The position numbers and the translations under genes were made by a program. 64,000 nucleotides of DNA. Source: Escherichia coli. GTDB taxonomy: Bacteria; Pseudomonadota; Gammaproteobacteria; Enterobacterales; Enterobacteriaceae. The stretch lies in assembly GCA_025336685.1 (NCBI GenBank), contig GCA_025336685.1_4717.1, one strand, 5' to 3'. The notes beneath the pieces were generated by a model. The model was not told where the DNA came from. It saw nothing but the letters and a program-made list of their open reading frames with translations, and made no database searches. Shown here one piece after another: positions 2,146 to 32,940 of this stretch. The number at the start of each line of letters is the position of its first letter. The first letter of the stretch is position 1.

Positions 2146-4758
2146 TTATACGTCCGGCGTAAAATCAAAAGGAACGTCCGTACGAATGATATCATAACGT
2201 TTTCCTAAGAAATAGAACTCTTCGGGAACCAGACCGGGAATAATGCTATCGCCGATGAACTGTGGGTATGCCCAGATGTACTGAGTGAGTCCTTCGAACA
2301 TATCCAGGTTATTTGCGTGGTTACCCATGATACGTTTCCAGAGTTCGCGTTTATACGGTGTTTTGACATCGAACCCATAAAGCGGTGCGAGGTCTTCGCC
2401 AGGAACAAACCCCAGGTAATAGTGGATCTGACTAACCGGGAACCCAAGCGTATCTCGCGGAATGGTGATCGCTTGCTCGGCCTTGGTGACATGCGTCTCA
2501 ATAATCCAGTCGTAGCACTCCGAATAGAACCGATCGAATTTCTCTGGATTATACCACGCTTTGGGAAGATTCAGTTTCTCCGTGAACGCGTTCGACATGA
2601 TCGTCGGCAAGAACGGAAGAACGCCGGTTTTGATCTGCGTGTATTTCGATTTTACCCGATTGACTAGATTCCAGCAACTGTATCCTAATTGATCGTTGCA
2701 GAACTCAACGTAGAGATCGTAATCCCCACCCGATAATGGATTATTAATATCGCCGATGTCTGCCGCATATTTGTTGGGGTATCGGTTATTGAAAGCCAGT
2801 TTGGTTTGGTAATCGTAAATGCACGGTTTATTGTTCTTCGTGTTAATCCACCACCAGGGTTCACCCACCTGCACACAAATGTCTTGGACATGCGGGTAGA
2901 TGATATCAGCAAACGCGGTTAACACATCCCCTAACCACGCCATCGCGTGTTGGTTGCATGGCGACAACAACCAAGACGGCGGCGTATATCCGGTTGCTGC
3001 TATGTTTCCTTCCCAATCCTGCTGCGCCCACTCGAACGGGCATGCCGTGCTCATCAATTCGTAACTTAAACTGATTGTAACAGAGAAATGGTGTTTTGCA
3101 GCGTATGCGGCGAAAGCTTCATGCCATGCGATACAGGGTGGGTTGAGTACATCTGTGGTGTTCACCAGTAACTTACTCGCACTTGGTGTCCAGACAGTAT
3201 CGTAGAAATGCGACATTCCAACATAGTGCACTAATTCATCTTGATATCCCGCATAAACCAGGTTCTCAAATACGCGTTCCGGCGTGATGTTGTAATGGTC
3301 GTCATAAGCGGTTATCGCACGAAGCTCGTGTGGTGTACATTGGTGACGATTAACCGTCATTTCCTGATACACCCCATCAATAGGAAGAATCTCGAGGGTT
3401 AAACCGAGGTCGATCGGTGTTTCCAGGTAGGTCGTTTCTGTAGCACCTTCCTTATAATGTCGAGAACTCATGCTGAACATCAACGACGTGACCGATTCGA
3501 GTTCGATAGGTTCGTCAGCATAGAACCCCGCCATTGCGTCGTTGAAATCGATCGTTACGATTGCGCTTCTACCATCTTCAGAGACGTCGGTGGCGTATCG
3601 GGTTAATGAGATATACTGACGGCTATCGTCTTTGTGTACGACGGTTAAAACCGGCGGGTTTTCGGTATCCGCAAAGTTACGCTGATCGCCAGTAAACGTG
3701 ATCTTGGCTTTAAAGATCAAACCGAACAACGACGTCATGGGATCATACGCAACACAACCATGATCTAGCGTATCCGTTGTCCGCCATTCTATCCCTACCA
3801 ACCCGTTAGCGGTATGGCATCGCATATACGCATTAAGTGTCATGTCTTCACTGACAACCGCGAAGTTCTCTGTAGATTGACCGTTGATAATCCAATACAT
3901 CGGTTGCCAGAGGTTACGCGTGCCTTTTGCGTAGCGGTAGGTTGGTGCGCCTTTAGGGTTGCCGTTATTGAGATGGAATACAGCCGTACCTTGGTAATGA
4001 TCGTTCGTGTTAATCGGAACACTGTACGCGTCGCCGAGGTCCGTACGTTCGACCTTCGTGACAGTTGCGTTTTCAAACAGCCCACGTAGTGTAGGAAGAC
4101 CAATGTCATCAGGCGCGTTTTCTCGGCGAATCGCGTCCGCGATGCGGTGGGCTAGGGCGGGGTAAATGGTCTCACCCTGCTGTAGGTTTGCAAGACCTAC
4201 AAAGCGATCGGGGTTGATACCAGCAATCAATAACTCGACATCGCCCTTCGTTCTATCGTCATGGAGGTATTTCAGTCCAGTAAGATCAAGATGTTGAATT
4301 AACGACAACAGATTGTACTTACGGTTTTCAACAGTCAGTACAAGATCACCTGCCCAAACCAAACTTCCCTCATCCGCCGTTACTCTAACGGATTGGCGGC
4401 CTGTGGTAGACGTTGTTGTCGTTTTATTTAATTGTCCTTGTAGGAAGTCGGTTGCGAGGTCAAAGGCAACGCCGTAACGGTCAGCGACCGCCTGCATGAT
4501 TTCACGTAACTGGGTATCTTCTTCAATGATGATCTTGACAGGTATTCCCAAGAACGCCTTGGCGAGGTCTCGCTTAACCATCGAGACGAATACGGATTTG
4601 TAATATCGGCCTCCATCTTTCCCTTTAAAAAGAATGGAGGTTGTTTCGGGTGACGATAGAACACGTGCAAATTCAACATCGTCGAAAGTAAGAGAAAGTC
4701 CGTTTTTCTCGTTGGTTAATCTTAGTATTTCATTTTGCGCGGTTTCATGTAACTTCAT
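2146..4758 (-). CDS. tail spike/fibre-like receptor-binding protein (870 aa) with shared N-terminal anchor domain
   Basis: N-terminal ~170 aa (KRDLAKAFLGIPVKI...VWAGDL) paralogous to four other proteins in the window; large distal domain of unknown fold; TGAGG SD. Confidence 0.55.
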   Translation of the reverse strand: MKLHETAQNEILRLTNEKNGLSLTFDDVEFARVLSSPETTSILFKGKDGGRYYKSVFVSMVKRDLAKAFLGIPVKIIIEEDTQLREIMQAVADRYGVAFDLATDFLQGQLNKTTTTSTTGRQSVRVTADEGSLVWAGDLVLTVENRKYNLLSLIQHLDLTGLKYLHDDRTKGDVELLIAGINPDRFVGLANLQQGETIYPALAHRIADAIRRENAPDDIGLPTLRGLFENATVTKVERTDLGDAYSVPINTNDHYQGTAVFHLNNGNPKGAPTYRYAKGTRNLWQPMYWIINGQSTENFAVVSEDMTLNAYMRCHTANGLVGIEWRTTDTLDHGCVAYDPMTSLFGLIFKAKITFTGDQRNFADTENPPVLTVVHKDDSRQYISLTRYATDVSEDGRSAIVTIDFNDAMAGFYADEPIELESVTSLMFSMSSRHYKEGATETTYLETPIDLGLTLEILPIDGVYQEMTVNRHQCTPHELRAITAYDDHYNITPERVFENLVYAGYQDELVHYVGMSHFYDTVWTPSASKLLVNTTDVLNPPCIAWHEAFAAYAAKHHFSVTISLSYELMSTACPFEWAQQDWEGNIAATGYTPPSWLLSPCNQHAMAWLGDVLTAFADIIYPHVQDICVQVGEPWWWINTKNNKPCIYDYQTKLAFNNRYPNKYAADIGDINNPLSGGDYDLYVEFCNDQLGYSCWNLVNRVKSKYTQIKTGVLPFLPTIMSNAFTEKLNLPKAWYNPEKFDRFYSECYDWIIETHVTKAEQAITIPRDTLGFPVSQIHYYLGFVPGEDLAPLYGFDVKTPYKRELWKRIMGNHANNLDMFEGLTQYIWAYPQFIGDSIIPGLVPEEFYFLGKRYDIIRTDVPFDFTPDV

Positions 4759-6309: not shown

Positions 6310-6813
6310 TTACTGGCTGACAACCTCAACGGAACTGGGATCGGCGATCAGCGCACGGTCGGTAGAACAATTGAAGAAGACCATGCCAACACCATCACCG
6401 TTCGAGTTCAGGGTTGAACTTACGTAAGACAATGTTGGTTTATTCATACGGTAGAAGCGTTCGTTGGTGGTGGTATTGAACCCCAGATCAACGTAGTCTT
6501 TCACCGTGGTGTACAACTGTGTGGACTCGAAAACGGTTACCGGAGAGTCAACGGTAAACTGACTACCTTCGTCCACTACCAGAACTTTATCGTTCCAGAT
6601 TTCAGTGGTTGAGAACTTCGGTTTCCAGTGTTCGAATTCCTGGGTTGCTCCCCAGCAGGAATACACAGCGAGATCGCTGTTCTTCTCAACAGGTTTTAAC
6701 CCCACCAGTTGTGTCAGGCCTTTATCCAGATTCGGTAAGCCTTCCAGTGTAGCACACCCACCCAGAGAAAGTACCATCAACATACCGAGAATAATCGCGC
6801 AAAGTTTCTTCAT
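6310..6813 (-). CDS. putative lipoprotein (167 aa)
   Basis: N-terminal MKKLCAIILGMLMVLSLGGC: signal peptide with lipobox-like LGGC; AAGGA SD. Confidence 0.55.
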   Translation of the reverse strand: MKKLCAIILGMLMVLSLGGCATLEGLPNLDKGLTQLVGLKPVEKNSDLAVYSCWGATQEFEHWKPKFSTTEIWNDKVLVVDEGSQFTVDSPVTVFESTQLYTTVKDYVDLGFNTTTNERFYRMNKPTLSYVSSTLNSNGDGVGMVFFNCSTDRALIADPSSVEVVSQ

Positions 6814-7273: not shown

Positions 7274-10200
7274 TTACATAAACTCCTCGATGATGCAAAT
7301 CCCGTCAGCGCCACGCCCGCCACGCATAACGGTTCCAGTGTAACCGTTATCGTAAGCGCCGCCGCCCGAACCTCGTGCGAGGCCGTTTGACCCACCGCCA
7401 ACAGCTGCGCGACCACCGCCACCCCAATATGACGCACCCCCACCACCACATACAGGAAATGCGCCAGCCTGACCGTCATCACCATCACCACCTGAAATGC
7501 GTATATCCCCGGTACTAGGTACACCACCACCCCCACCGCCAGTGTTTGTGACAGTTGTTTTTCCTGCGCCTTGCCCACCGGGAGCAGTCAGCAGGGATGC
7601 AAATTTACTATCCCCGCCCCTGTTTCCAACTGTTGCCCCGGAACCACCAGTGCCACCAGAACCAATTACAACAGAATAACTAGTAGCCGCTACCGTTATA
7701 ACCGAAATTACTGTTGCCCCGGCCCCACCGCCAGCACCAAAAAACGTTTCGCTGTTGGAAAAAGCCTGGCAACCACCACCGCCGCCTCCACCACCGGTTA
7801 ATATTACTCTAATCCGTTTTGTTCCTTGTGTTGGGGTGTACGTCCCTGACGATGTGAAAACACGCATGTTCAGTAAACGTCCGACATATCCACTAGAATC
7901 GGCTAAACCAAGATCTTTAGCTGCTAACGTGATATTAGCTGTGCCATCGAAAGGTTTACCGTTAATCGTGCGTGCCGTCTGCAGCTTCGTGGCCGTTGCT
8001 GCGTTTCCTGACGTATTCTGGTTTCCCGCGGCGTTAACACCTGGTAGATTGATGTTCGCACTACCGTCGAAAGACACCCCACCAATGGTGCGGGCTGTCT
8101 TCAGTTTTGTCGCCGTGGCGGCATTACCGGTCGTGTCTTGGTTACCGGTGGTGTTTACCCCAGGTAGGTTGATATTGGCTGTTCCGTTAAATGAAACACC
8201 ACCAATCGTCCTTGCTGTTTGCAACTTCGTTGCGGATGCCGCATTCCCCGTGGTGTTTTGGTTACCTGTTGCATTCACGCCTGGGATGCTATCCTTAGAT
8301 GTGTAGATCTGTGCCCATTCCGACCAGTTCGAATCGGCCGCATCACGACGTGAACGTAGGTAAGCTGGAGCGTGTGCGCCTGAGGTACCTGACCACCCAA
8401 TGAGGATTTCACCTTCACCGACCGATGAAGCCCCTTTAAGATGAATGATGTTACCATAAGCGGTGGGATATCCGTTATTGTACGCTTCATACATCTGGAT
8501 GCCCGCATTGCTGCCCTGAGCCGTGTTAGCTAAGGCCGTAACACGACCTTTGGAAGCGAGAGCGTTAATACTGAAGCTAATATCCTTAGTACCGTCAAAG
8601 GCGACCCCATTAATCTTCCGTGCTGTTTGGAGTTTCGTAGCAGTAGCCGCATTACCAGAGGTACTCTGATTACCTGCTTTGTTCACGCCCGGTAAATCAA
8701 TGTTGGCTGTTCCATCAAAGGACACACCCCCTATGGTTCTCGCTGTCTGGAGTTTTGTTGCTGAACCAGCGTTTCCAGAAGTGCTTTGATTACCTGCCGC
8801 GTTGACACCCGGTAGGTCAATGCTAGCAGAACCATCAAAAGAAACTCCACCGATCGTGATCGGTGTTTTCAATTTCGTGGCTGTCGCAGCATTACCCGTC
8901 GTATTCTGATTGCCAGCAGCATTAACACCAGGTAATGCGATATCGGTCGTACCATCGAACGCAACACCACCGACTTTACGGGCGGTCTGTAGCTTGGTCG
9001 CTGTAGCCGCGTTGCCGCTGGTATTTTGCGTGCCTGCTTTATTTACGCCAGGCAAATCAATGTTCGCAGTACCATCAAAAGAAACACCCCCGATGGTTCT
9101 CGCGGTCTCAAGTTTGGTTGCGCTTCCTGCGTTTCCGCTGGTGCTTTGATTTCCCGCTGCATCAACACCTGGTAGATTGATGCTGGCCGAACCATCGAAA
9201 CTCACACCACCGATAGTAACAGCGGTTTTCAACTTCGTCGCCGTTGCTGCGTTACCGGTTGTATTTTGATTGCCTGTCGCATTAACGCCCGGTAATGCAA
9301 TATCCGCTGTTCCGTCAAAGGCAACGCCACCGATTCTACGTGCAGTTTGTAGCTTGGTTGCACTAGCAGCGTTACCGCTGGTATTCTGGGTGCCAGCTTT
9401 GTTAACACCGGGGAGATCGATATTAGCAGAACCATCGAAGCTGACGCCACCTATCGTTCTTGCAGTATCGAGTTTAGCTGCTGTGGCTGCATTATTACCC
9501 ACTTTCAGCCAATCATCCCATGGACCATCCTGGCCGTTCCATGATGCCGTTAAACTACGTACGTAAATATTGCCGGTACGTACAGTGTAACGTTGCGTTC
9601 CACCGAATTGTCCGGCAGGGAGCACTTCAAGGTAACCTGCAGCATTTGCTTCAGGGAAATTGTGGGCGACGTCCGCGTTCGTTGATACTGGTTTAGACCA
9701 AATACCCACAGACACTTCAACCGGACCGTAAGTATTCAGATTTGCGTCGGTGGGGAGCTGTCCTCGAAAACGTTGGAATTGTGTCGCCGATAACCCCAAC
9801 GTTGTTTGCATGCTTTCAATGCTGGATTGCTGAAGTAACGTCCGTGCTGTCGATGTAATCACGGTAAGCGCAACTTTATTAACACCGGTGAAATACGGGA
9901 GTTTGTCTGCTGATGTCGCTAAACCTGAAAAGGCGGTCAGTAATGCGTTAAGGGGCTGCTTCCCAGCTAACGCATTTGTTACCGTCGTTGCGAAATTAGG
10001 ATCGCTTCCTATAGCTCGAGCCAGCTTATTAAGCGTATTTAGCGTCGCTGGTGACGAGTCGATCAGCGCCGTGATCGCACGCATCACAAATTCCGTGTTG
10101 GCTATCTGTCGACTGCTATTGTTAACTGCTGCGGTGGGCGCTGCTGGCGTACCAGTGAATACAGGGCTATTAAGATCCGCCTTGAGGGCGATGAGACGTT

Positions 10201-11149
10201 TAAGCGCTTCAACATCGACTTTCAGGTTTTCCCATCCGATGAGAGAACCACCACTGTTGGCATGGTAACGGTTGTACCAGAAGTCACCGTTAACGCCTAA
10301 AAAGAATATTCCCTTCTCTTCGTTTTGTGGGCCGGAACTATTTCGTGATGCGCTGATATATTTGATTTTAATAATACCGTTAAACACCACTCCTGGGATT
10401 ATTTCGCTGCTTCCAGCTAACTGTGATACTTGGTAAATCCCCGGGGTCGCAGCTTTAACCCATGTTAAGAATTCTGTTACTCCGGCGTTACCACTGAAAT
10501 TCTTAACGTCGGTAAGTATCGCACCATAACCGAACATACCGGGCAGAGCAACTCGTCCGTTGGTACGGTCACGAATATTTGATGCGATTACAGGTAGCTG
10601 TTTACGAACATTATTAACCGCCTTAGGTGTGGCCGATTTTGTCTCATCGTCGCTATCGATGGCGTTGCTCAGGATGGTCAGCCCTCGCTTAGCAGTAGTT
10701 GCATCAGGAAGAAATGCGTTATCCAACACCTTAAGCTGTATTGCACTCGTATTACTAACAACGACATGCATCTGACAGTTAAGAACGCTGGTTGCGCCTT
10801 CGGTAGGCATAGGCTTATATCTTTCTGGTGCACTGCAGACGGCAATCAGAACACCCTTGTCGTCGTACAGACCGATCTCACGTACCCAGAACCCACCTTG
10901 ACTGGCAGGAATAATACCCTCAACGACAATCCTGGTTGTACTATCGCCATCCGCATGGATATTAGAAACTTCCCCACGATAAACTTCGTGAACAAGCGCT
11001 GTTTGGCTGGCGGTCGGGGTTGGTGTCGAGCCGTTACCATCACCAACGGCAAAGTGTGTGATTTTTAGTTTCTCACCGTCGGGAAGTAACGCAGCGGTGA
11101 TACGTTCTGCTCCTTTATCGGTAACTACCGTTTTATATGCTGTACTCAT
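7274..11149 (-). CDS. long tail fibre protein (about 1291 aa from internal Met; ORF track 1318 aa)
   Basis: About 12 degenerate ~34-aa repeats (TARTIGGVSFDGTANIDLPGVNxAGNQNTSGNAATATKLQ) typical of phage fibres; Gly-rich C-terminal domain; likely start MSTAYKTVV at 11147-11149. Confidence 0.8.
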   Translation of the reverse strand: MSTAYKTVVTDKGAERITAALLPDGEKLKITHFAVGDGNGSTPTPTASQTALVHEVYRGEVSNIHADGDSTTRIVVEGIIPASQGGFWVREIGLYDDKGVLIAVCSAPERYKPMPTEGATSVLNCQMHVVVSNTSAIQLKVLDNAFLPDATTAKRGLTILSNAIDSDDETKSATPKAVNNVRKQLPVIASNIRDRTNGRVALPGMFGYGAILTDVKNFSGNAGVTEFLTWVKAATPGIYQVSQLAGSSEIIPGVVFNGIIKIKYISASRNSSGPQNEEKGIFFLGVNGDFWYNRYHANSGGSLIGWENLKVDVEALKRLIALKADLNSPVFTGTPAAPTAAVNNSSRQIANTEFVMRAITALIDSSPATLNTLNKLARAIGSDPNFATTVTNALAGKQPLNALLTAFSGLATSADKLPYFTGVNKVALTVITSTARTLLQQSSIESMQTTLGLSATQFQRFRGQLPTDANLNTYGPVEVSVGIWSKPVSTNADVAHNFPEANAAGYLEVLPAGQFGGTQRYTVRTGNIYVRSLTASWNGQDGPWDDWLKVGNNAATAAKLDTARTIGGVSFDGSANIDLPGVNKAGTQNTSGNAASATKLQTARRIGGVAFDGTADIALPGVNATGNQNTTGNAATATKLKTAVTIGGVSFDGSASINLPGVDAAGNQSTSGNAGSATKLETARTIGGVSFDGTANIDLPGVNKAGTQNTSGNAATATKLQTARKVGGVAFDGTTDIALPGVNAAGNQNTTGNAATATKLKTPITIGGVSFDGSASIDLPGVNAAGNQSTSGNAGSATKLQTARTIGGVSFDGTANIDLPGVNKAGNQSTSGNAATATKLQTARKINGVAFDGTKDISFSINALASKGRVTALANTAQGSNAGIQMYEAYNNGYPTAYGNIIHLKGASSVGEGEILIGWSGTSGAHAPAYLRSRRDAADSNWSEWAQIYTSKDSIPGVNATGNQNTTGNAASATKLQTARTIGGVSFNGTANINLPGVNTTGNQDTTGNAATATKLKTARTIGGVSFDGSANINLPGVNAAGNQNTSGNAATATKLQTARTINGKPFDGTANITLAAKDLGLADSSGYVGRLLNMRVFTSSGTYTPTQGTKRIRVILTGGGGGGGGCQAFSNSETFFGAGGGAGATVISVITVAATSYSVVIGSGGTGGSGATVGNRGGDSKFASLLTAPGGQGAGKTTVTNTGGGGGGVPSTGDIRISGGDGDDGQAGAFPVCGGGGASYWGGGGRAAVGGGSNGLARGSGGGAYDNGYTGTVMRGGRGADGICIIEEFM
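7905..8285 (-). repeat. coding tandem repeats, block B (about 3 units) inside the long fibre gene
   Basis: Same ~34-aa unit after a ~100-aa non-repeat spacer. Confidence 0.55.
8575..9485 (-). repeat. coding tandem repeats, block A (about 9 units of ~102 bp) inside the long fibre gene
   Basis: Repeated GGVSFDG...LPGVN...TGNAATATKL units read from the translation; DNA copies are diverged. Confidence 0.6.
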
Positions 11150-11156
11150 GGTGTTT

Positions 11157-11684
11157 TTATCCTGGATAAATAGTGATGATATCACCAATGACCGTTGTGG
11201 CACCGGCGTAAAGATGAGCCGGAGATACATCGTGTTGGTTTGTCACGGTAAGATCCAATCGACCACGCCAAACCATGGAGGTATTCGCGATGGGGATAGA
11301 AATCTTTTTGGATATATCGTCACGAAAATCAATAACAGTGGCAAGGGTAACTGTATCAAAGTCAACGTCGGGGTCAAAGACGAACCCGTATTGATCTGAA
11401 ATCGCCCGAATAATCGCGTGTATAGTTGTTGTCTTAACAGACTCTAAAACGATTTTTATTGGTATTCCTAGAAATGCCTTCGCAATATCGCGTCGAGCGT
11501 AAACGATAAAACTTTCACCGTTCCACCTTGTTCCTTCATTTGCTGTGACGATCACTTTTGCCCTGTTAGCACCAGAACTTCCATCCAAGACTAATGTAAG
11601 ATCGGAGCTGTTGAATACGCTACTGTTACGTCTGTTTATCAACGACGTCAGTTCGTCTTTCCATGGCGGGTAAAGTGAACACAT
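11157..11684 (-). CDS. free-standing anchor-domain protein (about 175 aa) upstream of the long fibre
   Basis: Paralog of the N-terminal domain of the 870/590/503-aa proteins (YARRDIAKAFLGIPIKI); start MCSLYPPWKDEL with GGAGGAGGG SD. Confidence 0.5.
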   Translation of the reverse strand: MCSLYPPWKDELTSLINRRNSSVFNSSDLTLVLDGSSGANRAKVIVTANEGTRWNGESFIVYARRDIAKAFLGIPIKIVLESVKTTTIHAIIRAISDQYGFVFDPDVDFDTVTLATVIDFRDDISKKISIPIANTSMVWRGRLDLTVTNQHDVSPAHLYAGATTVIGDIITIYPG

Positions 11685-18211: not shown

Positions 18212-18790
18212 TTAGTAAGGAATCAGATCGTTAAGCTTTTCTTCTTCGATGACAAAGAAGTTGTTCTGGTCGTCTAAATCTGTTAACAGGACTTGTCCGA
18301 CAGTAAAGCACGTGCCACCCTTCTTAGGCATCCATACCGGCTCATTTGTTACCTTATCGGGATACCATTTGAAACGATTGGTATCCAAGAAGAACGCTGC
18401 TTTGTTCACTTTATCCGTTGATCGGTAACTTACTAACGCTGGCCACTCAATCCAGGTATTTGTGCACGGCACATGTAAAGGATACCATGCACGCCAGCGT
18501 TTGCCTGGCTTGTTAGGATCAACCCAATACTCGGCAGTCAATACAGCATCTTTATAATGTTTCTGTATTAACATTTCGAGCACAAGCTCATTGCCTTTTG
18601 ATGAATCTAAAGTCACTTCAGCCATATAAAGAGATTTAGGTAATCCAGACTGTTTTGCGGGTGGTATTACGACACCGGTAACCAACGGTCTGCTCGGCTT
18701 ACGCTTCTGTTCTTTCCGATGTGTGTAAAGGAATAGCCCGATAGCTGCGGCAACAAGTATAATAAACAACACTACCTTAATCCAATTCAT
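18212..18790 (-). CDS. membrane-anchored hypothetical protein (192 aa)
   Basis: N-terminal hydrophobic helix VVLFIILVAAAIGLFLY; 4-nt overlap with the upstream gene. Confidence 0.45.
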   Translation of the reverse strand: MNWIKVVLFIILVAAAIGLFLYTHRKEQKRKPSRPLVTGVVIPPAKQSGLPKSLYMAEVTLDSSKGNELVLEMLIQKHYKDAVLTAEYWVDPNKPGKRWRAWYPLHVPCTNTWIEWPALVSYRSTDKVNKAAFFLDTNRFKWYPDKVTNEPVWMPKKGGTCFTVGQVLLTDLDDQNNFFVIEEEKLNDLIPY

Positions 18791-19536
18791 TCGTCAATAT
18801 CTCCTTCTACAAACAGAGTCAATTTGATTTCAGGATCATAGAACATAGTAATCACACCATCTTGCTCTACTGAACGTTGCGCTGTCCATATTAACTGTTC
18901 ATCCCGAATATCAAATTTATGCCGCTCATCACTCACCACGGCTTCCGCATCAACGTAATGGTAAACATCACCGAGAGGGTTCTCAATCCAACCACGTACC
19001 ATCAAACGTTCTTTTTGTTTACGTGTAAAGAAGCGATAAGGATCTTCGCACGTGCGCCATACATCCCCGTTCCCGCTGACCAGCTCATCATAAACTTTAG
19101 AGAGTTCGTCAGGTACCGGAATCAAAATGTTATCTTGATAGTTCGACCAGAAACGACGTACATCTTGGATCAGCTCATCGTCCTGCAGTTTGATTACCGC
19201 GTCACTATGATCGATTTTAACAGTATCGATATCAAGACGGGTAAACGGAAGAGCGTCTAGGTTTACCGCAACGACATCGATCCGATCATGATGAACATAA
19301 ACCCACCCATCAAACCACCGGTAACCATCAGCTTGATATAGCGTTGTGTGATATCTGACGACGCTGATGTCTTCGAACGATTCTAATAAGGCTTTAGCTG
19401 CTAAAAGCGGTGAAAAGTTCTTTGATTGTCCTGGTTTACGTATCTCTTCTTTGATGAACAATTTACCAAGCAGTGGGTGTTCGATAACAAAACCACAGGA
19501 AAGCATGATGCTTCCTTGATAGCGAGGTTCTTGCAT
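18787..19536 (-). CDS. hypothetical protein (249 aa)
   Basis: ORF with GAGGAA SD. Confidence 0.45.
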   Translation of the reverse strand: MQEPRYQGSIMLSCGFVIEHPLLGKLFIKEEIRKPGQSKNFSPLLAAKALLESFEDISVVRYHTTLYQADGYRWFDGWVYVHHDRIDVVAVNLDALPFTRLDIDTVKIDHSDAVIKLQDDELIQDVRRFWSNYQDNILIPVPDELSKVYDELVSGNGDVWRTCEDPYRFFTRKQKERLMVRGWIENPLGDVYHYVDAEAVVSDERHKFDIRDEQLIWTAQRSVEQDGVITMFYDPEIKLTLFVEGDIDE

Positions 19537-19654
19537 TTCCTATTCCTCAAACAAATGATTGTCTTTTACGCGACATGATTACAAGTACACAGGTTACTGA
19601 ATTTCTGTAAGAATTAATTTTCGTAAACTAAAAGAAAATGTATCCGTGTTTCCT

Positions 19655-19691
19655 GGTTCTTCCCCTCCACAGCCTCAGGAAGAGAAGAACC
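19655..19691 (-). terminator. terminator hairpin
   Basis: Stem GGTTCTTC/GAAGAACC around a CCTCC-containing loop, after the 82-aa gene; minus-strand RNA continues U-rich. Confidence 0.5.
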
Positions 19692-19711
19692 GTTTGCTAA
19701 GTTGTTATGTA

Positions 19712-19960
19712 TTAAAATGCATTGATTGGACTGTTCAATGCTTTATCACGGATTTGAATCGCCGCCAGCATTGCTTTCTGGTACGAATCGTAAGCATCAA
19801 CAGAAACAGTCGTATCAACCAATTCCTTTAATACTGATTCAGCCGCTTTTACGCGGACGCGGAACTTGGTGATTGCATTATCTTTGTTACGATAAACCGT
19901 GATGTGGTGCAGCGGTTGAACTTTGGTTTTAACGGATTTAGTTGCTTTGATCGTTTTCAT
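19712..19960 (-). CDS. hypothetical protein (82 aa)
   Basis: ORF flanked by terminators on both sides; AAGGAAA SD. Confidence 0.4.
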   Translation of the reverse strand: MKTIKATKSVKTKVQPLHHITVYRNKDNAITKFRVRVKAAESVLKELVDTTVSVDAYDSYQKAMLAAIQIRDKALNSPINAF

Positions 19961-20014
19961 GGTGATTTCCTTCTTTATTAGGATGATTACATTTAGTCAG
20001 TTTAACAGCATAAA

Positions 20015-20039
20015 CCCTTCCTGCTTTACGCAGGAAGGG
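20015..20039 (-). terminator. intrinsic terminator hairpin
   Basis: CCCTTCCTGC/GCAGGAAGGG perfect 10-bp stem, loop TTTAC, followed on the minus strand by UUUAUGCUG. Confidence 0.7.
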
Positions 20040-20053
20040 CATACGGATTTGTT

Positions 20054-20551
20054 TTACGCGTGTCGTCGTTTACCAAAGAAAATATGATTGTCTACCACGG
20101 TGATATTGGTAGCATGTTTTCTGAAATGTTTAGGGCGAAGATGTTTCGCGTTAAAGAATACGGCTCCTCGTGTTGGATCGGCTTTACGGTAAGCAACAAT
20201 GTCGTTATTGCGCAATGTTGCGACCTCTCGTGCTATCGCTCTTGCCCGCTCAAAAGCGGCACGATCGCGTATGACAATTCGTTGTTGTCTTGCCCAGGGG
20301 AATTGACCTCTTTGCAGTACGACGTCTCTGACGTTCGTAGGGAATCGGTAGTCCATAGATCGATTATGTATTAAAAACGCCACGGAGTATTGCCCTTTTA
20401 CAGATTCGCCTCTGGCTTCCATATACACAGCGCATGCGACGATCTCTTTCCGGCAATCGATTCTAGGTCCTGCGTTCACCGATGCTTGACTTAACGGTGC
20501 GATAAGCAACATAACAAGCCCTAAAACCAACGTGTGTAAAATACCTTGCAT
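20054..20551 (-). CDS. SleB-like cell-wall hydrolase with N-terminal signal/anchor (candidate endolysin)
   Basis: Hydrophobic N-terminus GILHTLVLGLVMLLIAPLSQA, then CAVYMEARGES...VAFLIHNR...VVLQRGQF resembling the SleB hydrolase family; start at Met18 with GAGG SD (ORF track extends to 20602). Confidence 0.6.
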   Translation of the reverse strand: MQGILHTLVLGLVMLLIAPLSQASVNAGPRIDCRKEIVACAVYMEARGESVKGQYSVAFLIHNRSMDYRFPTNVRDVVLQRGQFPWARQQRIVIRDRAAFERARAIAREVATLRNNDIVAYRKADPTRGAVFFNAKHLRPKHFRKHATNITVVDNHIFFGKRRHA

Positions 20552-20805
20552 CTTAATTAACCTCACGATAAGGTGCTGTCCACTGGCGTCTTGATAACGC
20601 ATCCCGTCTATCGGGTTATTCTATTCAGCGGGCAGCAGGTTAGCGTCAGATGTTTGCCCGACATCCACGACAGAAATAAACGGTACTGAAAATACGGTCT
20701 CCTCTGGTTTGGCAATAAACATAACGTTGGATAACAGAACCCATTTCCCGCATCCAACGCGGTAAAGGTGTACATCGTTTGAATTCATATAGTTTCTCAA
20801 AGATG

Positions 20806-21108
20806 TTAACCTCTACCGTCGAGCCACAAGTTGTATTTCTCACGAGCGTCGGGATCGCGATAGATGCGACGATACCTTAATTCCGGTAATAATCCGGTTC
20901 GCACTAACTCATCCGTTAACTTTCTACGACGTTCTACGCCGTTATGGATACGACGTAACTCACGAAAGTTAAGCGGTGTTTGTTTCATTAGAACCCCCAT
21001 TACGATCGGGCGATGATCAATTTCATACAGCGATAATACCCCACGTATTTCATCTAATACCCGCTCGCGATCGATTAGTATTCGATCATGATATTTTAAT
21101 TGTTCCAT
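20806..21108 (-). CDS. hypothetical protein (100 aa)
   Basis: ORF in the lysis-like cassette; no motif. Confidence 0.35.
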   Translation of the reverse strand: MEQLKYHDRILIDRERVLDEIRGVLSLYEIDHRPIVMGVLMKQTPLNFRELRRIHNGVERRRKLTDELVRTGLLPELRYRRIYRDPDAREKYNLWLDGRG

Positions 21109-21134
21109 AACAGTCGCTCTCGTTTCAGGGGGAG

Positions 21135-21338
21135 TTAAGTATTGTGTTTATTCCTACCTACATTCCTCAACAGTGTAACGATAACGAATACCGCCACCAT
21201 CAAGAAGACGAACCATAACCCGACATTAATTCGGGCGGCTGGTACATCCACCATAAGGAGCATCGTCCCACAAAACCCAAGGACTATCCATACTAACATC
21301 ATCCCTATCAACCCCCGCAGCAACTTAAGCCAGATCAT
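21135..21338 (-). CDS. small membrane protein (67 aa), holin candidate
   Basis: Two hydrophobic helices (LIGMMLVWIVLGFCGTMLLMV and LWFVFLMVAVFVIVTLL); start preceded by TAAGGAGGAG. Confidence 0.4.
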   Translation of the reverse strand: MIWLKLLRGLIGMMLVWIVLGFCGTMLLMVDVPAARINVGLWFVFLMVAVFVIVTLLRNVGRNKHNT

Positions 21339-21511
21339 AAACTCCTCCTTACTTTCTCTGATAAAGCGACGATTCTAATTTTAGAAACATCCCTAATGCG
21401 AATGCGAGTAATGACGCACGTACCCACATACCTCCTTGAAAACTGTTGTACAACATAAAGACCAGAGCGATGCCGCCCATATGCAGGCGGCACTTATCGA
21501 ACAATGTTGGT

Positions 21512-21721
21512 TTATACATAGGAGATTAAACGTTGAATGATTTTTACTTTGCCTTTGCCTGGACCTTTCTTGCGACGATTCAATAGACGGATACGGTTTC
21601 CAATTACGGAATCGCCGTCATAATCAGCACGCAACTGTGGTGGGAGAGCAAGATGTTCGCGATTGACACCCGGGTTGTTATAAAAACGATTGAAACTTAA
21701 AAGATGGTTAGTTGGAATCAT
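21512..21721 (-). CDS. small basic protein with RRKKGPGKGK motif
   Basis: Shares the motif (I/L)xxRxx(K/R)KKGPxKGK with three small ORFs at 39.9-40.4 kb; ORF-track start is TTG, first ATG at 21719-21721. Confidence 0.4.
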   Translation of the reverse strand: MIPTNHLLSFNRFYNNPGVNREHLALPPQLRADYDGDSVIGNRIRLLNRRKKGPGKGKVKIIQRLISYV

Positions 21722-21739
21722 TGTATTGACCTTATTCAA

Positions 21740-22090
21740 TTATTTACCAAGATAGAGGTATTCGCCACCCTGAATAACACCGGTTGATGGGTCAACCAGT
21801 ATGCGAACCCGCGCGTAGGTCTTGAAAGAGGGATTGAAAACTTCGAAGTCAGCCACTTTCAATTTCACGCTGGGGTTGGTAGGGTTTTTAACTCCTGGAA
21901 GTTCTTTCGGTAATCCGAAGTCGACTCCATATTCTTCAAGGTCTGCTGGTGTCATGCTCTCCATGGCCATGTAGATTGCTTTTGCTTTATCGTAAACCTC
22001 TGGGCTATCCAGCAACCCAGCCTGCGCTGAACCGACAACACTACCGAACAGAATAGCAACAGCAACAAACAATTTAGTTAACGTTTTCAT
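21740..22090 (-). CDS. secreted/periplasmic protein (116 aa)
   Basis: N-terminal signal peptide MKTLTKLFVAVAILFGSVVGSAQA. Confidence 0.5.
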   Translation of the reverse strand: MKTLTKLFVAVAILFGSVVGSAQAGLLDSPEVYDKAKAIYMAMESMTPADLEEYGVDFGLPKELPGVKNPTNPSVKLKVADFEVFNPSFKTYARVRILVDPSTGVIQGGEYLYLGK

Positions 22091-22126
22091 GATATTTTCC
22101 TCGAAAGTAAAATGTTACAATACCTA

Positions 22127-22549
22127 TTAACGTACGGCTGCTACGCTGTTAGCGCATGCCTGAATATCATCGGTATTTACGATGATGGTTTCGTTAAACG
22201 CACGAATGCGTGCGCGACGGGCTTCTTTAAGGCTGGCGATTGCGTTAGCAGCTTGATCTGTATTCGCAAGGCTAATAACCGGGATCAAACGCATGTCAGG
22301 ACTGCAGATATTCAATGCTTGGTATACACGGCCGTTGATTCCTACGGTATCAGACATCGGATAGTGCGCACGGCATTGAAATTGACCCATGACAACAAGC
22401 GAACGATCGGAGATACCAATCTGATAACGACCGTCTTCGCTGTAGGTGTAACAGTTATTCCCACGAGCCATCCAGTTAGCTTGTGCTTGTGCACTAACAA
22501 AAGCCAGGGTAGCGACGATAGCGAATGCGATATTTTTGAACAGTTTCAT
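22127..22549 (-). CDS. secreted/periplasmic protein (about 141 aa)
   Basis: Signal peptide MKLFKNIAFAIVATLAFVSAQAQA from the internal ATG at 22547-22549. Confidence 0.5.
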   Translation of the reverse strand: MKLFKNIAFAIVATLAFVSAQAQANWMARGNNCYTYSEDGRYQIGISDRSLVVMGQFQCRAHYPMSDTVGINGRVYQALNICSPDMRLIPVISLANTDQAANAIASLKEARRARIRAFNETIIVNTDDIQACANSVAAVR

Positions 22550-22585
22550 GATAAAGATCCTTATTGAAATAAAATCGGTATAAAG

Positions 22586-22601
22586 CCCCCCATTTAGGGG
22601 G
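22586..22601 (-). terminator. short terminator hairpin
   Basis: CCCCC-ATTTA-GGGGG followed on the minus strand by a U-rich run. Confidence 0.4.
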
Positions 22602-22607
22602 ACCTGA

Positions 22608-22925
22608 TTAGTTTGCACTTAAGAAATGACCCAGAACCGTTACGATTGGAAACAGTCCCGTAACCGTATTATCGCCAGAAAACATCATCTTTGAGTCGTT
22701 AACGGTGATGAAACGGATGTCGGTTGCAGACCCATCGATAGCGACAAAACGCATCGAGTTCGGTGGAAGATCCTCAACAACTTCCACGAGGTGTTCACGA
22801 TTTTCAAAGGCTTCTTTAACACGACGCATGAAACGAATCAATGTTCCTTCAGCGTCGGCTTCCAAATGACCTAAGATATCGCGATTATTACGAATAGCGA
22901 ATACAGCCATTTTAAACATACACAT
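22608..22925 (-). CDS. hypothetical protein (105 aa)
   Basis: ORF with AAGAGGA SD; conserved 17-mer and a 12-bp hairpin lie upstream. Confidence 0.45.
   Translation of the reverse strand: MCMFKMAVFAIRNNRDILGHLEADAEGTLIRFMRRVKEAFENREHLVEVVEDLPPNSMRFVAIDGSATDIRFITVNDSKMMFSGDNTVTGLFPIVTVLGHFLSAN

Positions 22926-30276: not shown

Positions 30277-32940
<2,664 letters not shown>

What the first reader, a model, noticed from the sequence alone, without database searches (positions are those of the whole stretch)
20054..21519. Lysis-like cassette built around a SleB-type hydrolase rather than a classical lysozyme
A hydrolase with an N-terminal hydrophobic signal or anchor (20054..20551) lies downstream of a two-TM 67-aa protein (21135..21338). 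An unlisted 57-aa hydrophobic ORF (about 21349..21519) may precede that. No lipobox-containing spanin candidate is visible nearby.
Basis: partly seen in the sequence, partly recalled or inferred. Interest (0 to 1): 0.35.

Follow-up and report, generated by a model that had tools for sequence, protein, structure and literature searches.

The report
Secreted endolysin module with RNA leader
This stretch of a Goslar-like jumbo phage encodes an ordinary, already-annotated type of secreted cell-wall-cutting enzyme with small membrane proteins just upstream, but the enzyme gene is preceded by an unusually conserved, apparently folded RNA leader that may control when it is made.

Summary
All three ORFs exist on the minus strand of a Goslar-like nucleus-forming jumbo coliphage (92% nt identity to phage Goslar).

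- **Hydrolase, 20054..20551.** This is Goslar gp098, annotated "endolysin". It has a SleB/CwlJ-type catalytic domain (Pfam Hydrolase_2; the AlphaFold model matches only SleB structures). It carries a Leu-rich, cleavable-looking Sec signal peptide, not a SAR anchor.
- **67-aa protein.** It has two transmembrane segments, evolves under purifying selection, and is found only in Goslar-like phages.
- **"Unlisted" ORF.** It is a real 56-aa gene (pN/pS 0.07–0.4) with a homologue in a second phage clade. It is translationally coupled to its neighbours.
- **Spanins.** No spanin candidate exists in the window or the scanned ~98% of the Goslar genome.

The "lysis cassette" reading is plausible but unproven. 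No membrane protein matches a known holin family, and other holin-like proteins exist. Goslar also has a soluble GH108 lysin elsewhere. Secreted Hydrolase_2 lysins are already known in Gram-negative phages.

The unexpected feature is the 254-nt spacer before the hydrolase gene. It is 98–99% conserved, non-coding, and has no Rfam match. Compensatory base changes between two clades support a helix that occludes the ribosome-binding site.

The parts
20054..20551 (-). Secreted SleB/CwlJ-type (Hydrolase_2) peptidoglycan hydrolase, 165 aa; orthologue of Goslar gp098 'endolysin'. The mature part is very cationic (net about +16).
   Evidence: Pfam PF07486 E=3e-16. PHROG 938 endolysin. 92.7% aa identity to gp098. 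AlphaFold2 pLDDT 89.7; Foldseek hits only SleB catalytic domains 4F55/4FET, probability 1.0. Invariant E45, R64, H156 in a 96-sequence family alignment. Charge.
20483..20551 (-). Predicted Sec signal peptide, MQGILHTLVLGLVMLLIAPLSQA, with predicted cleavage before S24 (-3 Ser, -1 Ala, Pro at -5).
   Evidence: Hydropathy. Only 21% Gly/Ala/Ser/Thr in the hydrophobic core, so not SAR-like. 88 of 96 family representatives have an N-terminal hydrophobic signal. The SQASVNAG motif is invariant in 8 loci. The cleavage site is inferred from the -3/-1 rule; SignalP was not run.
20004..20040 (-). Intrinsic terminator directly after the hydrolase stop: 11-bp GC-rich stem, GUAAA loop, U-rich tail.
   Evidence: dG -25.7 kcal/mol, z = -6.7 against shuffles. 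Sequence checked.
20552..20805 (-). Ultra-conserved non-coding leader between the p100 stop and the hydrolase ATG; probably a structured 5' UTR.
   Evidence: 98-99% mean pairwise identity over 8 loci, where flanking coding DNA is 72-95%. 15 distinct copies are still nearly invariant. No frame behaves as coding and one copy has a stop codon. No Rfam match. No other copy in the window. Sequence blocks are conserved in a second clade.
20648..20666 (-). Leader hairpin P2 (GGAUGU-CGGGCAA-ACAUCU) with an invariant 7-nt loop. Its 3' arm overlaps the anti-SD segment AUCU.
   Evidence: 3 of the 4 scored pairs change on both sides between clades, with 100% of cells paired. The clade-B stems GUACGC/GCGUAC and GCGC/GCGC were seen.
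20626..20649 (-). 5' strand of the long-range leader helix P1 (CUGACGCUAACCUGCUGCCCGCUG).
   Evidence: Independent MFE folds of both clades give the same nested helix. 19 pairs: 2 compensatory, 1 one-sided, 1 broken.
20561..20585 (-). 3' strand of P1, running into the Shine-Dalgarno sequence GUGAGG (20561..20566). The A and G of the SD are paired in the model.
20806..21108 (-). p100: 100-aa basic, all-helical cytoplasmic protein (Goslar gp099); function unknown; fast-evolving (57% identity to Goslar).
   Evidence: AlphaFold2 pLDDT 89.2 with no significant PDB fold match. No Pfam, PHROG or NCBIfam hit.
21135..21338 (-). p67: 67-aa membrane protein with two TM segments (Goslar gp101), predicted N-in/C-in with a basic C-terminal tail. 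This is the holin candidate.
   Evidence: Hydropathy. 19 homologue clusters, all from Goslar-like phages. Alignment A2 has 27 invariant columns. pN/pS 0.20. Strong SD GGAGGAG. No holin-family match.
21349..21519 (-). p56: unannotated 56-aa gene encoding a weakly hydrophobic, membrane-associated-looking protein. It is translationally coupled: its start overlaps the p69 stop, and its stop lies inside the p67 SD.
   Evidence: Coding signature. The ORF is present in Goslar but not annotated there. It is called as a gene in L004 and L008. Homologue B66 in the second clade, 43% identity, E 8e-15, where it has a predicted TM segment.
21515..21721 (-). p69: 69-aa strongly cationic protein (net +9; Goslar gp102) with a conserved C-terminus RRKKGPGKGKVKIIQRLISYV. 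Speculative candidate for an outer-membrane disruptor.
   Evidence: A weak KKGPxKG motif match to basic proteins beside the leader in the second clade.
21740..22090 (-). p116: secreted 116-aa protein (Goslar gp103) with signal peptide ...GSAQA|G and no lipobox.
   Evidence: pN/pS 0.11. Homologous to the C-terminal half of the fused secreted protein B232 in the second clade.
22127..22549 (-). p140: secreted 140-aa protein (Goslar gp104) with signal peptide ...VSAQA|QA and no lipobox.
   Evidence: Homologous to the N-terminal half of B232.

Best explanation
The region is the envelope-attack (lysis) module of a Goslar-like nucleus-forming jumbo phage.

**Shown.**
- The last gene encodes a small, very cationic enzyme with the SleB/CwlJ lytic-transglycosylase-type fold and the catalytic Glu (E45).
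- It is preceded by a Leu-rich N-terminal signal with an SQA|S site.
- The gene ends in a strong terminator.
- It is preceded by a 254-nt leader that is nearly invariant. Base-pairing in that leader is maintained by compensatory changes between two phage clades.
- Upstream lies a tightly packed, translationally coupled run of genes: two secreted proteins, a cationic 69-aa protein, a 56-aa weakly hydrophobic protein, a 67-aa two-TM protein and a 100-aa cytoplasmic protein.

**Inferred.**
- The enzyme is exported by Sec and its signal peptide is cleaved. It therefore reaches the peptidoglycan without needing a large holin hole, like the signal-peptide endolysins of Certrevirus phages and oenophage fOg44.
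- Its synthesis is limited or timed by the leader. The long-range helix P1 pairs with part of the ribosome-binding site. The P2 hairpin competes for the anti-SD segment.
- The 67-aa two-TM protein, possibly modulated by the co-translated 56-aa protein, acts as a small holin-like membrane depolariser that triggers or synchronises wall degradation.
- No spanin exists, so outer-membrane rupture would rely on the cationic enzyme itself and/or the cationic 69-aa protein.
For: **Identity and annotation:**

**Enzyme family, catalytic residue and fold:**

**Export signal.**
- Sequence properties.
- Invariance across relatives.
- The signal is a family-wide trait, present in 88 of 96 representatives.
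- A conserved Cys-x6-Cys just before the active site fits a periplasmic protein.

**Literature.**
- Certrevirus CB7_83 is SleB-like, has a signal peptide and is toxic in E. coli. CR3_087 is implicated in lysis (PMC7344957).
- Hydrolase_2 lysins of Gram-negative phages are typically highly cationic (PMC8223927).

**Analogous architecture in CR3:** a hydrolase with a signal peptide overlaps a 62-aa two-TM gene.

**Module conserved in a second clade** at 47% hydrolase identity: secreted protein, two-TM protein, p56 homologue, basic GPGKG proteins, leader, hydrolase.

**p67 and p56 are real, constrained genes:**

**Translational coupling and SD sequences:** read from the sequence.

**Terminator:**

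**Leader.**
- Conservation.
- Non-coding behaviour.
- Structure and covariation.

**No spanin candidate:**

**gp098 accession not found** in the virion mass-spectrometry table of the Goslar structure preprint, whereas gp024 was found.
Against: - No experiment links any of these genes to lysis.
- Goslar-like genomes carry another plausible endolysin outside the window. This is gp024, a soluble GH108 + PG-binding protein. It lies near the Goslar homologue of phiKZ gp139, a gene beside the phiKZ lysis cassette. It is also virion-associated, as phiKZ gp144 is.
- p67 and p56 match no holin family. p67 has no detectable homologue in the second clade, only an analogous two-TM protein in a different gene order.
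- Other holin-like proteins exist in the window: 1555..2124, 18212..18790 and 32656..32940.
- The multi-TM neighbour gp100 is present in most relatives but deleted here and in L003, which shows the cluster has dispensable parts.
- Signal-peptide cleavage was judged by rules, not by SignalP.
- The leader covariation rests on essentially two lineages. Within the Goslar clade, 3 of about 12 variable paired sites break a predicted pair.
- The supplementary proteomics file was truncated when stored, so the absence of gp098 from it is weak evidence.
Confidence: 0.5

Rival explanations
1. The secreted hydrolase is an accessory periplasmic wall-remodelling enzyme rather than the lysis endolysin. It might loosen the sacculus so the infected cell can bulge around the phage nucleus and bouquets, or it might modify the wall against superinfection. 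Lysis itself would use the soluble GH108 enzyme (gp024 orthologue, outside the window) with an unidentified holin. The small membrane and secreted proteins upstream would be host-takeover or exclusion factors.
For: - A second, classical soluble endolysin-type gene exists in Goslar. It lies near the Goslar homologue of phiKZ gp139, a gene beside the phiKZ lysis cassette (PMC12894885).
- Goslar-infected cells are reported to bulge.
- Certreviruses with a SleB-like secreted enzyme also carry another candidate endolysin (PMC7344957).
- The CR3 two-TM neighbour falls in a PHROG classed as 'moron/host takeover membrane protein', not as a holin.
- An enzyme exported throughout late infection would act gradually, not saltatorily.
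Against: - gp024 is found in virions, which fits an entry lysin at least as well as an endolysin.
- The gp098 family is annotated and implicated as endolysin in related systems.
- Tight control by a long conserved leader and a dedicated terminator suggests a dangerous product whose dose or timing matters.
- No holin-like gene lies next to gp024.
Confidence: 0.3
2. There is no functional cassette. The hydrolase is an independently transcribed gene, and the neighbouring small ORFs are unrelated jumbo-phage ORFans that happen to be membrane or secreted proteins. The conserved spacer would be a DNA-level element, such as a promoter cluster for the phage RNA polymerase or a protein-binding site, rather than a regulatory RNA.
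For: - A 254-nt spacer and another gene separate the hydrolase from p67.
- Small membrane proteins are scattered through the genome.
- gp100 and gp096 come and go between relatives.
- p100 and p67 have no homologues in the second clade.
- The fold z-score of the whole leader is only -2.1.
Against: - The neighbourhood of secreted protein, two-TM protein, p56 homologue, basic proteins, leader and hydrolase is retained in a clade with only 47% hydrolase identity.
- Start and stop codons overlap along the run p69-p56-p67.
- Five base pairs change on both sides while pairing is kept: 98.6% of cells are paired against 24-45% for slid controls. This argues for a folded RNA rather than a linear DNA motif.
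Confidence: 0.12

Closest known systems
Signal-peptide SleB-like 'endolysins' of Vequintavirinae/Certrevirus phages (Cronobacter phage CR3 gp087, Pectobacterium phage CB7_83)
   Same: Single Hydrolase_2 catalytic domain of about 150-180 aa with an N-terminal cleavable-type signal peptide and a cationic mature part. About 37% identity to the window protein. In CR3 a 62-aa two-TM protein gene overlaps the hydrolase stop. These proteins are annotated or implicated in lysis and are toxic in E. coli (PMC7344957).
   Different: The host phage type differs: ~150-kb rV5-like myoviruses versus a nucleus-forming jumbo phage. In CR3 the two-TM gene follows the hydrolase; here it lies upstream, separated by p100 and a 254-nt structured leader. 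The membrane proteins show no significant similarity (E 0.08). Certreviruses have Rz/Rz1 spanins elsewhere in the genome, whereas Goslar-like phages appear to have none.
Pinholin / SAR-endolysin system of lambdoid phage 21 (S21-R21)
   Same: A small (~68 aa) two-TM membrane protein paired with an endolysin that reaches the periplasm through Sec on its own. The membrane protein only has to depolarise the membrane. (Knowledge of the system is from memory of the Young-lab literature.)
   Different: The N-terminal domain of the hydrolase is Leu/Val/Ile-rich with an SQA|S cleavage motif, not a Gly/Ala/Ser-rich uncleaved SAR anchor. TMD1 of p67 is strongly hydrophobic, not SAR-like. The catalytic family differs, and there is no sequence homology.
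Secreted endolysin Lys44 of oenophage fOg44
   Same: An endolysin with a bona fide cleavable signal peptide, exported before lysis and thought to be activated when the membrane is de-energised. This is the closest mechanistic precedent for a cleaved secreted endolysin (from memory).
   Different: Gram-positive host and a different catalytic family. It has no outer-membrane problem and no known structured leader.
phiKZ lysis cassette (gp141 i-spanin, gp141.1 o-spanin, gp142 class III holin, gp143 regulator, gp144 transglycosylase; PMC12894885)
   Same: The only experimentally defined lysis cassette of a nucleus-forming jumbo phage. Lysis genes are clustered, with a cytoplasmic protein between the holin and the endolysin.
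   Different: None of phiKZ gp141-144 has a BLAST-detectable homologue in the window or in the Goslar loci searched, which cover about 93% of that genome. The phiKZ endolysin is soluble and holin-dependent, whereas this one carries a signal peptide. phiKZ has spanins and Goslar-like phages do not. The Goslar homologue of phiKZ gp139 (gp032) lies near gp024, not near gp098.
Bacillus spore cortex-lytic enzyme SleB (PDB 4F55, 4FET)
   Same: Same catalytic-domain fold (TM 0.69-0.74 normalised to target, probability 1.0). Same YxE(A/S)RGE motif with the catalytic Glu.
   Different: The window protein lacks the N-terminal PG-binding domain. It scores far below the SleB equivalog cutoff (42.9 against 236.5 bits). 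Its biological setting is different, and the muramic-lactam specificity of SleB is not expected here.

Membership tests
Pfam Hydrolase_2 (PF07486) / SleB-CwlJ catalytic domain | Full-length domain match above the Pfam gathering threshold | tested here: met
   60.2 bits against a cutoff of 27; profile positions 1-100 of 100.
Pfam Hydrolase_2 (PF07486) / SleB-CwlJ catalytic domain | Catalytic glutamate in the Y-x-E-[AS]-R-G-E motif | tested here: met
   AVYMEARGE aligns with SleB AVYGESRGE. E45 is invariant in 96 family members. The assignment of this Glu as catalytic comes from memory of the SleB structure papers.
Pfam Hydrolase_2 (PF07486) / SleB-CwlJ catalytic domain | SleB-like three-dimensional fold | tested here: met
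   AlphaFold2 pLDDT 89.7. The only significant PDB matches are 4F55 and 4FET.
Pfam Hydrolase_2 (PF07486) / SleB-CwlJ catalytic domain | Peptidoglycan-cleaving activity | not testable with these tools
   Needs a zymogram or a turbidity assay.
True SleB (spore cortex-lytic enzyme, TIGR02869 equivalog) | Full-length equivalog score, including the N-terminal PG-binding domain | tested here: not met
   42.9 bits against a cutoff of 236.5; only model positions 88-199 match.
SAR (signal-anchor-release) endolysin | N-terminal TMD rich in weakly hydrophobic Gly/Ala/Ser/Thr residues and lacking a signal-peptidase site | tested here: not met
   The core is 21% G/A/S/T, the 10-residue KD mean is 3.34, and an SQA|S motif with Pro at -5 is present.
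Signal-peptide (Sec-cleaved) endolysin | n-h-c signal peptide with small residues at -3 and -1 | tested here: met
   By hydropathy and inspection. The signal is conserved in 8 relatives. SignalP is not available, and cleavage itself is not testable here.
Signal-peptide (Sec-cleaved) endolysin | Required for host lysis at the end of infection | not testable with these tools
   Needs a knock-down or mutant of the gp098 orthologue.
Holin (class II / pinholin) - for p67 | Small protein with at least one TMD, a charged C-terminal cytoplasmic tail, and a gene near the endolysin gene | tested here: met
   67 aa, two TMDs, tail RNVGRNKHNT. The gene ends 583 nt upstream of the hydrolase start, with p100 and the leader between them.
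Holin (class II / pinholin) - for p67 | Membership of a described holin sequence family | tested here: not met
   No Pfam, PHROG or NCBIfam match. Homologues occur only in Goslar-like phages.
Holin (class II / pinholin) - for p67 | S21-type pinholin: SAR-like TMD1 and a dual-start motif | tested here: not met
   TMD1 (LIGMMLVWIVLGFCGTMLLMV) is strongly hydrophobic. The window protein starts MIWLK with no second Met. Most relatives start MGHM, which could be a dual start but has no charged residue between the Mets.
Holin (class II / pinholin) - for p67 | Timed, uncoupler-triggerable lethality that permits lysis | not testable with these tools
   Needs lambda S-amber complementation and DNP triggering, as was done for phiKZ gp142 (PMC12894885).
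Spanins (two-component or unimolecular) | Outer-membrane lipoprotein gene (lipobox) embedded in or adjacent to a TMD-anchored periplasmic protein gene, or a lipoprotein with a C-terminal TMD | tested here: not met
   All-start, six-frame lipobox scans of the window and of ~98% of the Goslar genome (100001-105470 not fetched) were run. Only the gp088 orthologue (6310..6813) qualifies. It has no C-terminal TMD, has no i-spanin-like neighbour, and sits beside the tail-fibre assembly gene.
Disruptin (phiKT gp28 type) - for p69 | Under 80 aa with net charge of at least +4 (the authors' own screening cutoff) | tested here: met
   69 aa, net +9. Cutoff from bioRxiv 10.1101/515445, which also calls this screen noisy.
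Disruptin (phiKT gp28 type) - for p69 | Predominantly amphipathic alpha-helical structure; complements an Rz/Rz1 defect | tested here: inconclusive
   The maximum 18-residue helical moment is 0.46, in a segment containing GPGKG, which is unlikely to be helical. Complementation is not testable here.

The most novel reading that the evidence does not exclude
The 254-nt leader (20552..20805) is a new cis-regulatory RNA that gates translation of a secreted endolysin in nucleus-forming jumbo phages. The long-range helix P1 hides the ribosome-binding site. The P2 hairpin has an invariant CGGGCAA loop, which may also pair with the invariant UUGCC block upstream. P2 competes for the anti-SD strand, so an unknown signal could switch the hydrolase on and set lysis time. 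The signal might be a late phage protein or RNA, temperature, or export from the phage nucleus. In this reading the lysis clock sits partly in an RNA switch rather than only in a holin.
Probability: 0.3. Interest if true: 0.6.

Novelty: new member of a known kind. Interest (0 to 1): 0.38.

Why it matters
The lysis system of enterobacterial chimalliviruses (Goslar and relatives) has not been defined. Only the phiKZ system has (PMC12894885), and none of its components has a detectable homologue here. This analysis gives a concrete, testable parts list:
- a Sec-exported cationic Hydrolase_2 enzyme;
- a conserved but unannotated 56-aa gene;
- a two-TM holin candidate;
- a cationic small protein that could replace the missing spanins;
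- competing candidates elsewhere in the genome.

The hydrolase itself is ordinary. It belongs to a family already exploited as Gram-negative lysins, although its strong positive charge makes it a reasonable enzybiotic candidate.

The more interesting result is the structured, ultra-conserved leader in front of the hydrolase gene. If it controls translation, it would be a new kind of control point for phage lysis timing and a compact regulatory RNA absent from Rfam.

Tried and rejected
- **182-aa long form of the hydrolase (start 20602).** Rejected: not open in Goslar, and frame-breaking indels occur in relatives.
- **55-aa ORF 20608..20775, called as a gene in several metagenome annotations.** Rejected as coding: pN/pS 1.9 and a stop codon in L006. 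The other frames are also non-coding-like by inspection.
- **p56 as a non-coding terminator/promoter element,** prompted by the hairpin GCCGCC...GGCGGC inside it (z only -1.8). Rejected in favour of coding after the codon-position analysis.
- **Rfam search of 19900..22200.** Only a chance miRNA hit.
- **Homology of p67, p56, p69, p100, p116 and p140 to known families.** None found in Pfam, PHROGs or NCBIfam.
- **tblastn of p67 and p56 against 50,697 phage records.** Only Goslar was found.
- **phiKZ gp141-144 against the window and the Goslar loci searched (about 93% of that genome).** No hits; only gp139 matches Goslar gp032.
- **Goslar gp189 (TM segment plus coiled coil) as an i-spanin.** Set aside: it is syntenic with phiKZ gp156 next to RNase H and has no lipoprotein partner.
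- **Lipoprotein 6310..6813 as an o-spanin or u-spanin.** Rejected on context and the lack of a C-terminal TMD.
- **Fold search of p100.** No significant PDB match.
- **CR3 gp086 against p67.** Not significantly similar.
- **Protein homology search on the hydrolase.** One search was wasted on too strict an E-value and replaced by the exhaustive representative search.
- **Goslar expression-timing data.** None could be retrieved.


Full report
**What the window is.** The region 19500..22700 is 92% identical in DNA to Escherichia phage vB_EcoM_Goslar. Goslar (Goslarvirus) is a nucleus-forming jumbo phage of the Chimalliviridae. The match lies at 109471-113484 of the Goslar genome. All genes in the region are on the minus strand. 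The closest public relative is an IMG/VR contig (L003), whose hydrolase is 98% identical.

**Check of the observation.**
- The hydrolase ORF runs from ATG 20551 to the stop at 20054 and encodes 165 aa. It equals Goslar gp098, annotated 'endolysin' or 'putative cell wall hydrolase', at 92.7% aa identity.
- The longer mechanical ORF from 20602 is not conserved.
- The 67-aa ORF 21135..21338 has two strongly hydrophobic segments and a basic tail. It equals Goslar gp101.
- The 'unlisted' ORF 21349..21519 has 56 codons. It is not annotated in Goslar, although the ORF is intact there.
- Between p67 and the hydrolase lie a 100-aa cytoplasmic protein (20806..21108, Goslar gp099) and a 254-nt spacer.

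**The hydrolase.**
- It matches Pfam Hydrolase_2 over the whole profile (E=3e-16) and PHROG 938 'endolysin'.
- By sequence it aligns only with the SleB catalytic domains in the PDB. AVYMEARGE lies opposite AVYGESRGE.
- In a 96-member family alignment built from an exhaustive HMMER search (3,462 relatives at E<=0.001), E45, R64 and H156 are invariant.
- The AlphaFold2 model (pLDDT 89.7) matches only 4F55 and 4FET.
- It is not a true SleB. It scores 42.9 bits against the 236.5-bit equivalog cutoff and has no PG-binding domain.
- The N-terminus MQGILHTLVLGLVMLLIAPLSQA|SVNAG has a short Leu/Val/Ile-rich core that is only 21% Gly/Ala/Ser/Thr. Pro sits at -5, Ser at -3 and Ala at -1. This is the signature of a cleavable Sec signal peptide, not of a SAR anchor.
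- The motif is invariant in eight relatives.
- 88 of 96 family representatives carry an N-terminal hydrophobic signal, so export is a family trait.
- The mature part has a net charge of about +16. This fits the published observation that Hydrolase_2 lysins of Gram-negative phages are strongly cationic (PMC8223927).
- A strong intrinsic terminator follows the stop codon (20004..20040; dG -25.7, z -6.7).

**The small proteins upstream.**
- p67 has 19 homologue clusters, all at least 64% identical and all from Goslar-like contigs. It evolves under purifying selection (pN/pS 0.20).
- By the positive-inside rule, p67 is N-in/C-in.
- p56 is a real gene. In codons 1-30 pN is 0.016 against pS 0.216, and variable sites are concentrated at third codon positions. 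In codons 31-56 the substitutions are conservative hydrophobic exchanges (pN/pS 0.40). Alternative frames score worse.
- The p56 start overlaps the stop of the upstream 69-aa gene (ATGTATAA). Its stop lies inside the GGAGGAG Shine-Dalgarno of p67. The three genes are therefore translationally coupled.
- The 69-aa protein (Goslar gp102) has net charge +9 and an invariant C-terminus RRKKGPGKGKVKIIQRLISYV.
- Further upstream are two secreted proteins with AQA-type signal peptides and no lipobox (p116 and p140).
- None of these proteins matches any Pfam, PHROG or NCBIfam family.
- p100 has a confident all-helical model with no PDB neighbour.

**Is it a cassette?**

Three lines of evidence support functional linkage:
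1. The gene run is compact and partly translationally coupled.
2. A second clade of jumbo-phage contigs (L026-L031) has a hydrolase only 47% identical but keeps the same neighbourhood. The neighbourhood comprises:
   - a secreted protein equivalent to p140 and p116 fused;
   - an 80-aa two-TM protein;
   - a p56 homologue (43% identity, E 8e-15);
   - basic proteins with a KGPGKG motif;
   - a ~260-nt spacer;
   - the hydrolase;
   - a gp095-like gene.
3. In Certrevirus CR3, a SleB-like 'endolysin' with a signal peptide overlaps a 62-aa two-TM protein gene. The CB7 paper reports that this enzyme family has a signal peptide, is toxic in E. coli and has been implicated in lysis (PMC7344957).

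Five lines of evidence weigh against a firm claim:
1. No holin homology exists.
2. p67 has no detectable homologue in the second clade.
3. The multi-TM neighbour gp100, present in Goslar and most relatives, is deleted in this window and in L003.
4. The window holds other holin-like proteins:
   - 1555..2124, conserved across enterobacterial chimalliviruses;
   - 18212..18790;
   - 32656..32940, which has two TM segments and a highly charged tail.
5. Goslar encodes two other muralytic domains outside the window:
   - gp024 is a soluble GH108/COG3926 protein. It was detected in virions by mass spectrometry.
   - The giant tail protein gp204 carries a COG3179 domain.

The gp098 accession was not found in that virion table. 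The stored file was truncated, so this is weak evidence.

**Spanins.** An all-start, six-frame lipobox scan was run on the window and on ~98% of the Goslar genome (100001-105470 not fetched). It finds one convincing lipoprotein, the gp088 orthologue at 6310..6813. This lies between the tail-fibre assembly gene and another structural-region gene, and it has no C-terminal TMD. The phiKZ lysis proteins (i-spanin, o-spanin, class III holin, regulator, endolysin; PMC12894885) have no BLAST-detectable homologue here. Goslar-like phages therefore look spanin-less. About 15% of phages are, according to the disruptin preprint abstract (bioRxiv 10.1101/515445). The cationic p69 passes that paper's crude screen (<80 aa, at least +4). 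The screen is noisy and p69's helicity is doubtful, so this remains a hypothesis.

**The leader.** The spacer 20552..20805 is the most conserved stretch of the whole 4.7-kb neighbourhood.
- Mean pairwise identity is 98-99% over eight loci, where the flanking coding DNA is 72-95%.
- It is in the top ~1% of 200-nt windows in the window-versus-Goslar comparison.
- Fifteen distinct copies remain almost invariant.
- It is not coding, has no Rfam match and has no second copy in the window.
- The second clade supplies divergence. Sequence blocks are kept: UAUGUUURUUGCCAAACCASAGGAG, CGGGCAA, CUGACGCUAACCUG and CACCUUAWCGUGAGG. The intervening stems differ.
- Independent MFE folds of both clades give the same 3' architecture.
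- I wrote a structure from these folds onto a MAFFT alignment of nine distinct sequences. It comprises hairpin P2 with the invariant loop CGGGCAA and a 19-bp interrupted long-range helix P1. On that alignment:
  - 98.6% of cells pair, against 24-45% when partners are slid by 1-3 columns.
  - Five pairs change on both sides: three of four in P2 and two in P1.
- The 3' strand of P1 runs into the Shine-Dalgarno GUGAGG. In the Goslar clade the 3' arm of P2 (ACAUCU) overlaps the segment that pairs with AGGU. In clade-B sequences, CUCAC can pair either in the lower stem of P2 or with GUGAG. This is the layout of a translational switch, but that is an inference.
- Caveats: there are effectively only two lineages. 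Within the Goslar clade three variable sites break predicted pairs in the 5' half. The whole-leader fold z-score is only -2.1.
- One curiosity is unexplained: a 139-nt stretch contains no TAA, TAG or TGA in any frame (P about 3e-4 from base composition).

**Most likely mechanism.**
- The hydrolase is made late and its amount is limited by the leader. It is exported by Sec and its signal peptide is cleaved, so it accumulates in the periplasm.
- Wall destruction is triggered or synchronised when a small membrane protein collapses the membrane potential. p67 is the best-placed candidate, possibly tuned by the co-translated p56.
- With no spanin, the outer membrane would be breached by the cationic enzyme and/or p69.
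- Shown: the domain family, the fold, the conserved signal, the gene structure, the conservation and the RNA covariation.
- Inferred: export and cleavage, timing control, holin function and the outer-membrane mechanism.
- I give this about 0.5. I give 0.3 to the view that gp098 is an accessory wall-remodelling enzyme and gp024 is the lysis endolysin. Goslar-infected cells do bulge. I give about 0.1 to no functional linkage at all.

**Novelty.** The finding as written is a new member of a known kind. Secreted Hydrolase_2 lysins are established in Gram-negative phages, and this one is already annotated as an endolysin in the closest reference genome. What is new here:
- the demonstration that the 56-aa ORF is a conserved gene missing from the reference annotation;
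- the absence of spanin candidates from the window and the scanned ~98% of the Goslar genome;
- the conserved, apparently structured leader in front of the hydrolase gene.

Noticed in passing
window 20552..20805 (- strand); also L001, L003-L008, L018-L031: This is an ultra-conserved (98-99%) non-coding 254-nt leader upstream of the hydrolase gene. It has no Rfam match. Compensatory base-pair changes between two phage clades support a hairpin with invariant loop CGGGCAA and a long-range helix that covers part of the Shine-Dalgarno sequence. The invariant upstream block UUGCC is complementary to the loop (GGCAA), so a pseudoknot is possible but cannot be tested because neither side varies.
   Followed up: yes
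window 20647..20785 (- strand), inside the leader: A 139-nt stretch contains no TAA, TAG or TGA trinucleotide in any of the three forward frames (P about 3e-4 from base composition). None of the frames shows a coding substitution pattern. This is unexplained.
   Followed up: partly
window 6310..6813 (- strand): This is the only convincing lipoprotein gene in the window and in the scanned ~98% of the Goslar genome (gp088 orthologue, 167 aa, lipobox LGGC, Ala at +2; PHROG 9559, unknown function). It lies between the tail-fibre assembly gene and other tail genes. That position recalls receptor-blocking or superinfection-exclusion lipoproteins such as T5 Llp rather than a spanin.
   Followed up: partly
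window 21109..21134 and 19537..19711, compared with L001 6077..6448 and 4115..4615: Relative to Goslar, this phage and the IMG/VR relative L003 lack gp100, a 123-aa multi-TM membrane protein that sits between gp099 and gp101 in most relatives. The window also lacks gp096 (166 aa). Part of the membrane-protein cluster is therefore dispensable.
   Followed up: partly
window 1555..2124 (- strand): This 189-aa protein has a ~93-aa soluble N-terminal domain, two hydrophobic segments and a charged C-terminus (Goslar gp085). It is conserved in many enterobacterial chimalliviruses (PCH45, PhiEaH1, Moabite, 2050HW and others) and lies beside a DUF7941 tail protein gene. Its layout loosely recalls the phiKZ class III holin gp142, and in phiKZ the gene after gp142, gp143, is reported as a DUF7941 protein. 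It is an alternative holin candidate, with no detectable sequence similarity to gp142.
   Followed up: partly
window 32656..32940 (- strand): This 94-aa protein has two TM segments and an extremely charged C-terminal tail ([31 protein letters not shown]). It is the Goslar gp122 orthologue, next to the DNA ligase gene. Its features are holin-like and it matches no known family.
   Followed up: no
window 20806..21108 (- strand): p100 (Goslar gp099) is only 57% identical to its Goslar orthologue, while its neighbours are 92-97% identical. Two sequence types exist among relatives. The protein has a confident all-helical AlphaFold model with no PDB fold neighbour. It appears to be a fast-evolving protein of unknown function.
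   Followed up: partly
Goslar NC_048170 17700..18335 (outside the window; L009): A second 'endolysin' gene, gp024, encodes a soluble 211-aa GH108/COG3926 protein. It was detected in purified virions by mass spectrometry (Table S4 of bioRxiv 10.64898/2026.04.21.720040). It lies near the Goslar homologue (gp032) of phiKZ gp139, a gene that sits beside the phiKZ lysis cassette.
   Followed up: partly
window 18212..18790 (- strand): This 192-aa protein (Goslar gp094) has an extreme N-terminal TM segment followed by a strongly basic stretch (HRKEQKRKPSRP). That suggests an N-out/C-in orientation with a large cytoplasmic domain. Its gene overlaps the upstream gene by 4 nt. Function unknown.
   Followed up: no
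window 7274..11230 (- strand): This 1318-aa tail fibre protein has many near-identical ~40-aa repeats (…GGVSFDGSANI[DN]LPGVN.AGNQ.T.GNAA.ATKL.TAR…) and a Gly-rich C-terminal region. It resembles P1 gpS-type fibres. The antisense strand carries long spurious ORFs produced by the repeats.
   Followed up: no
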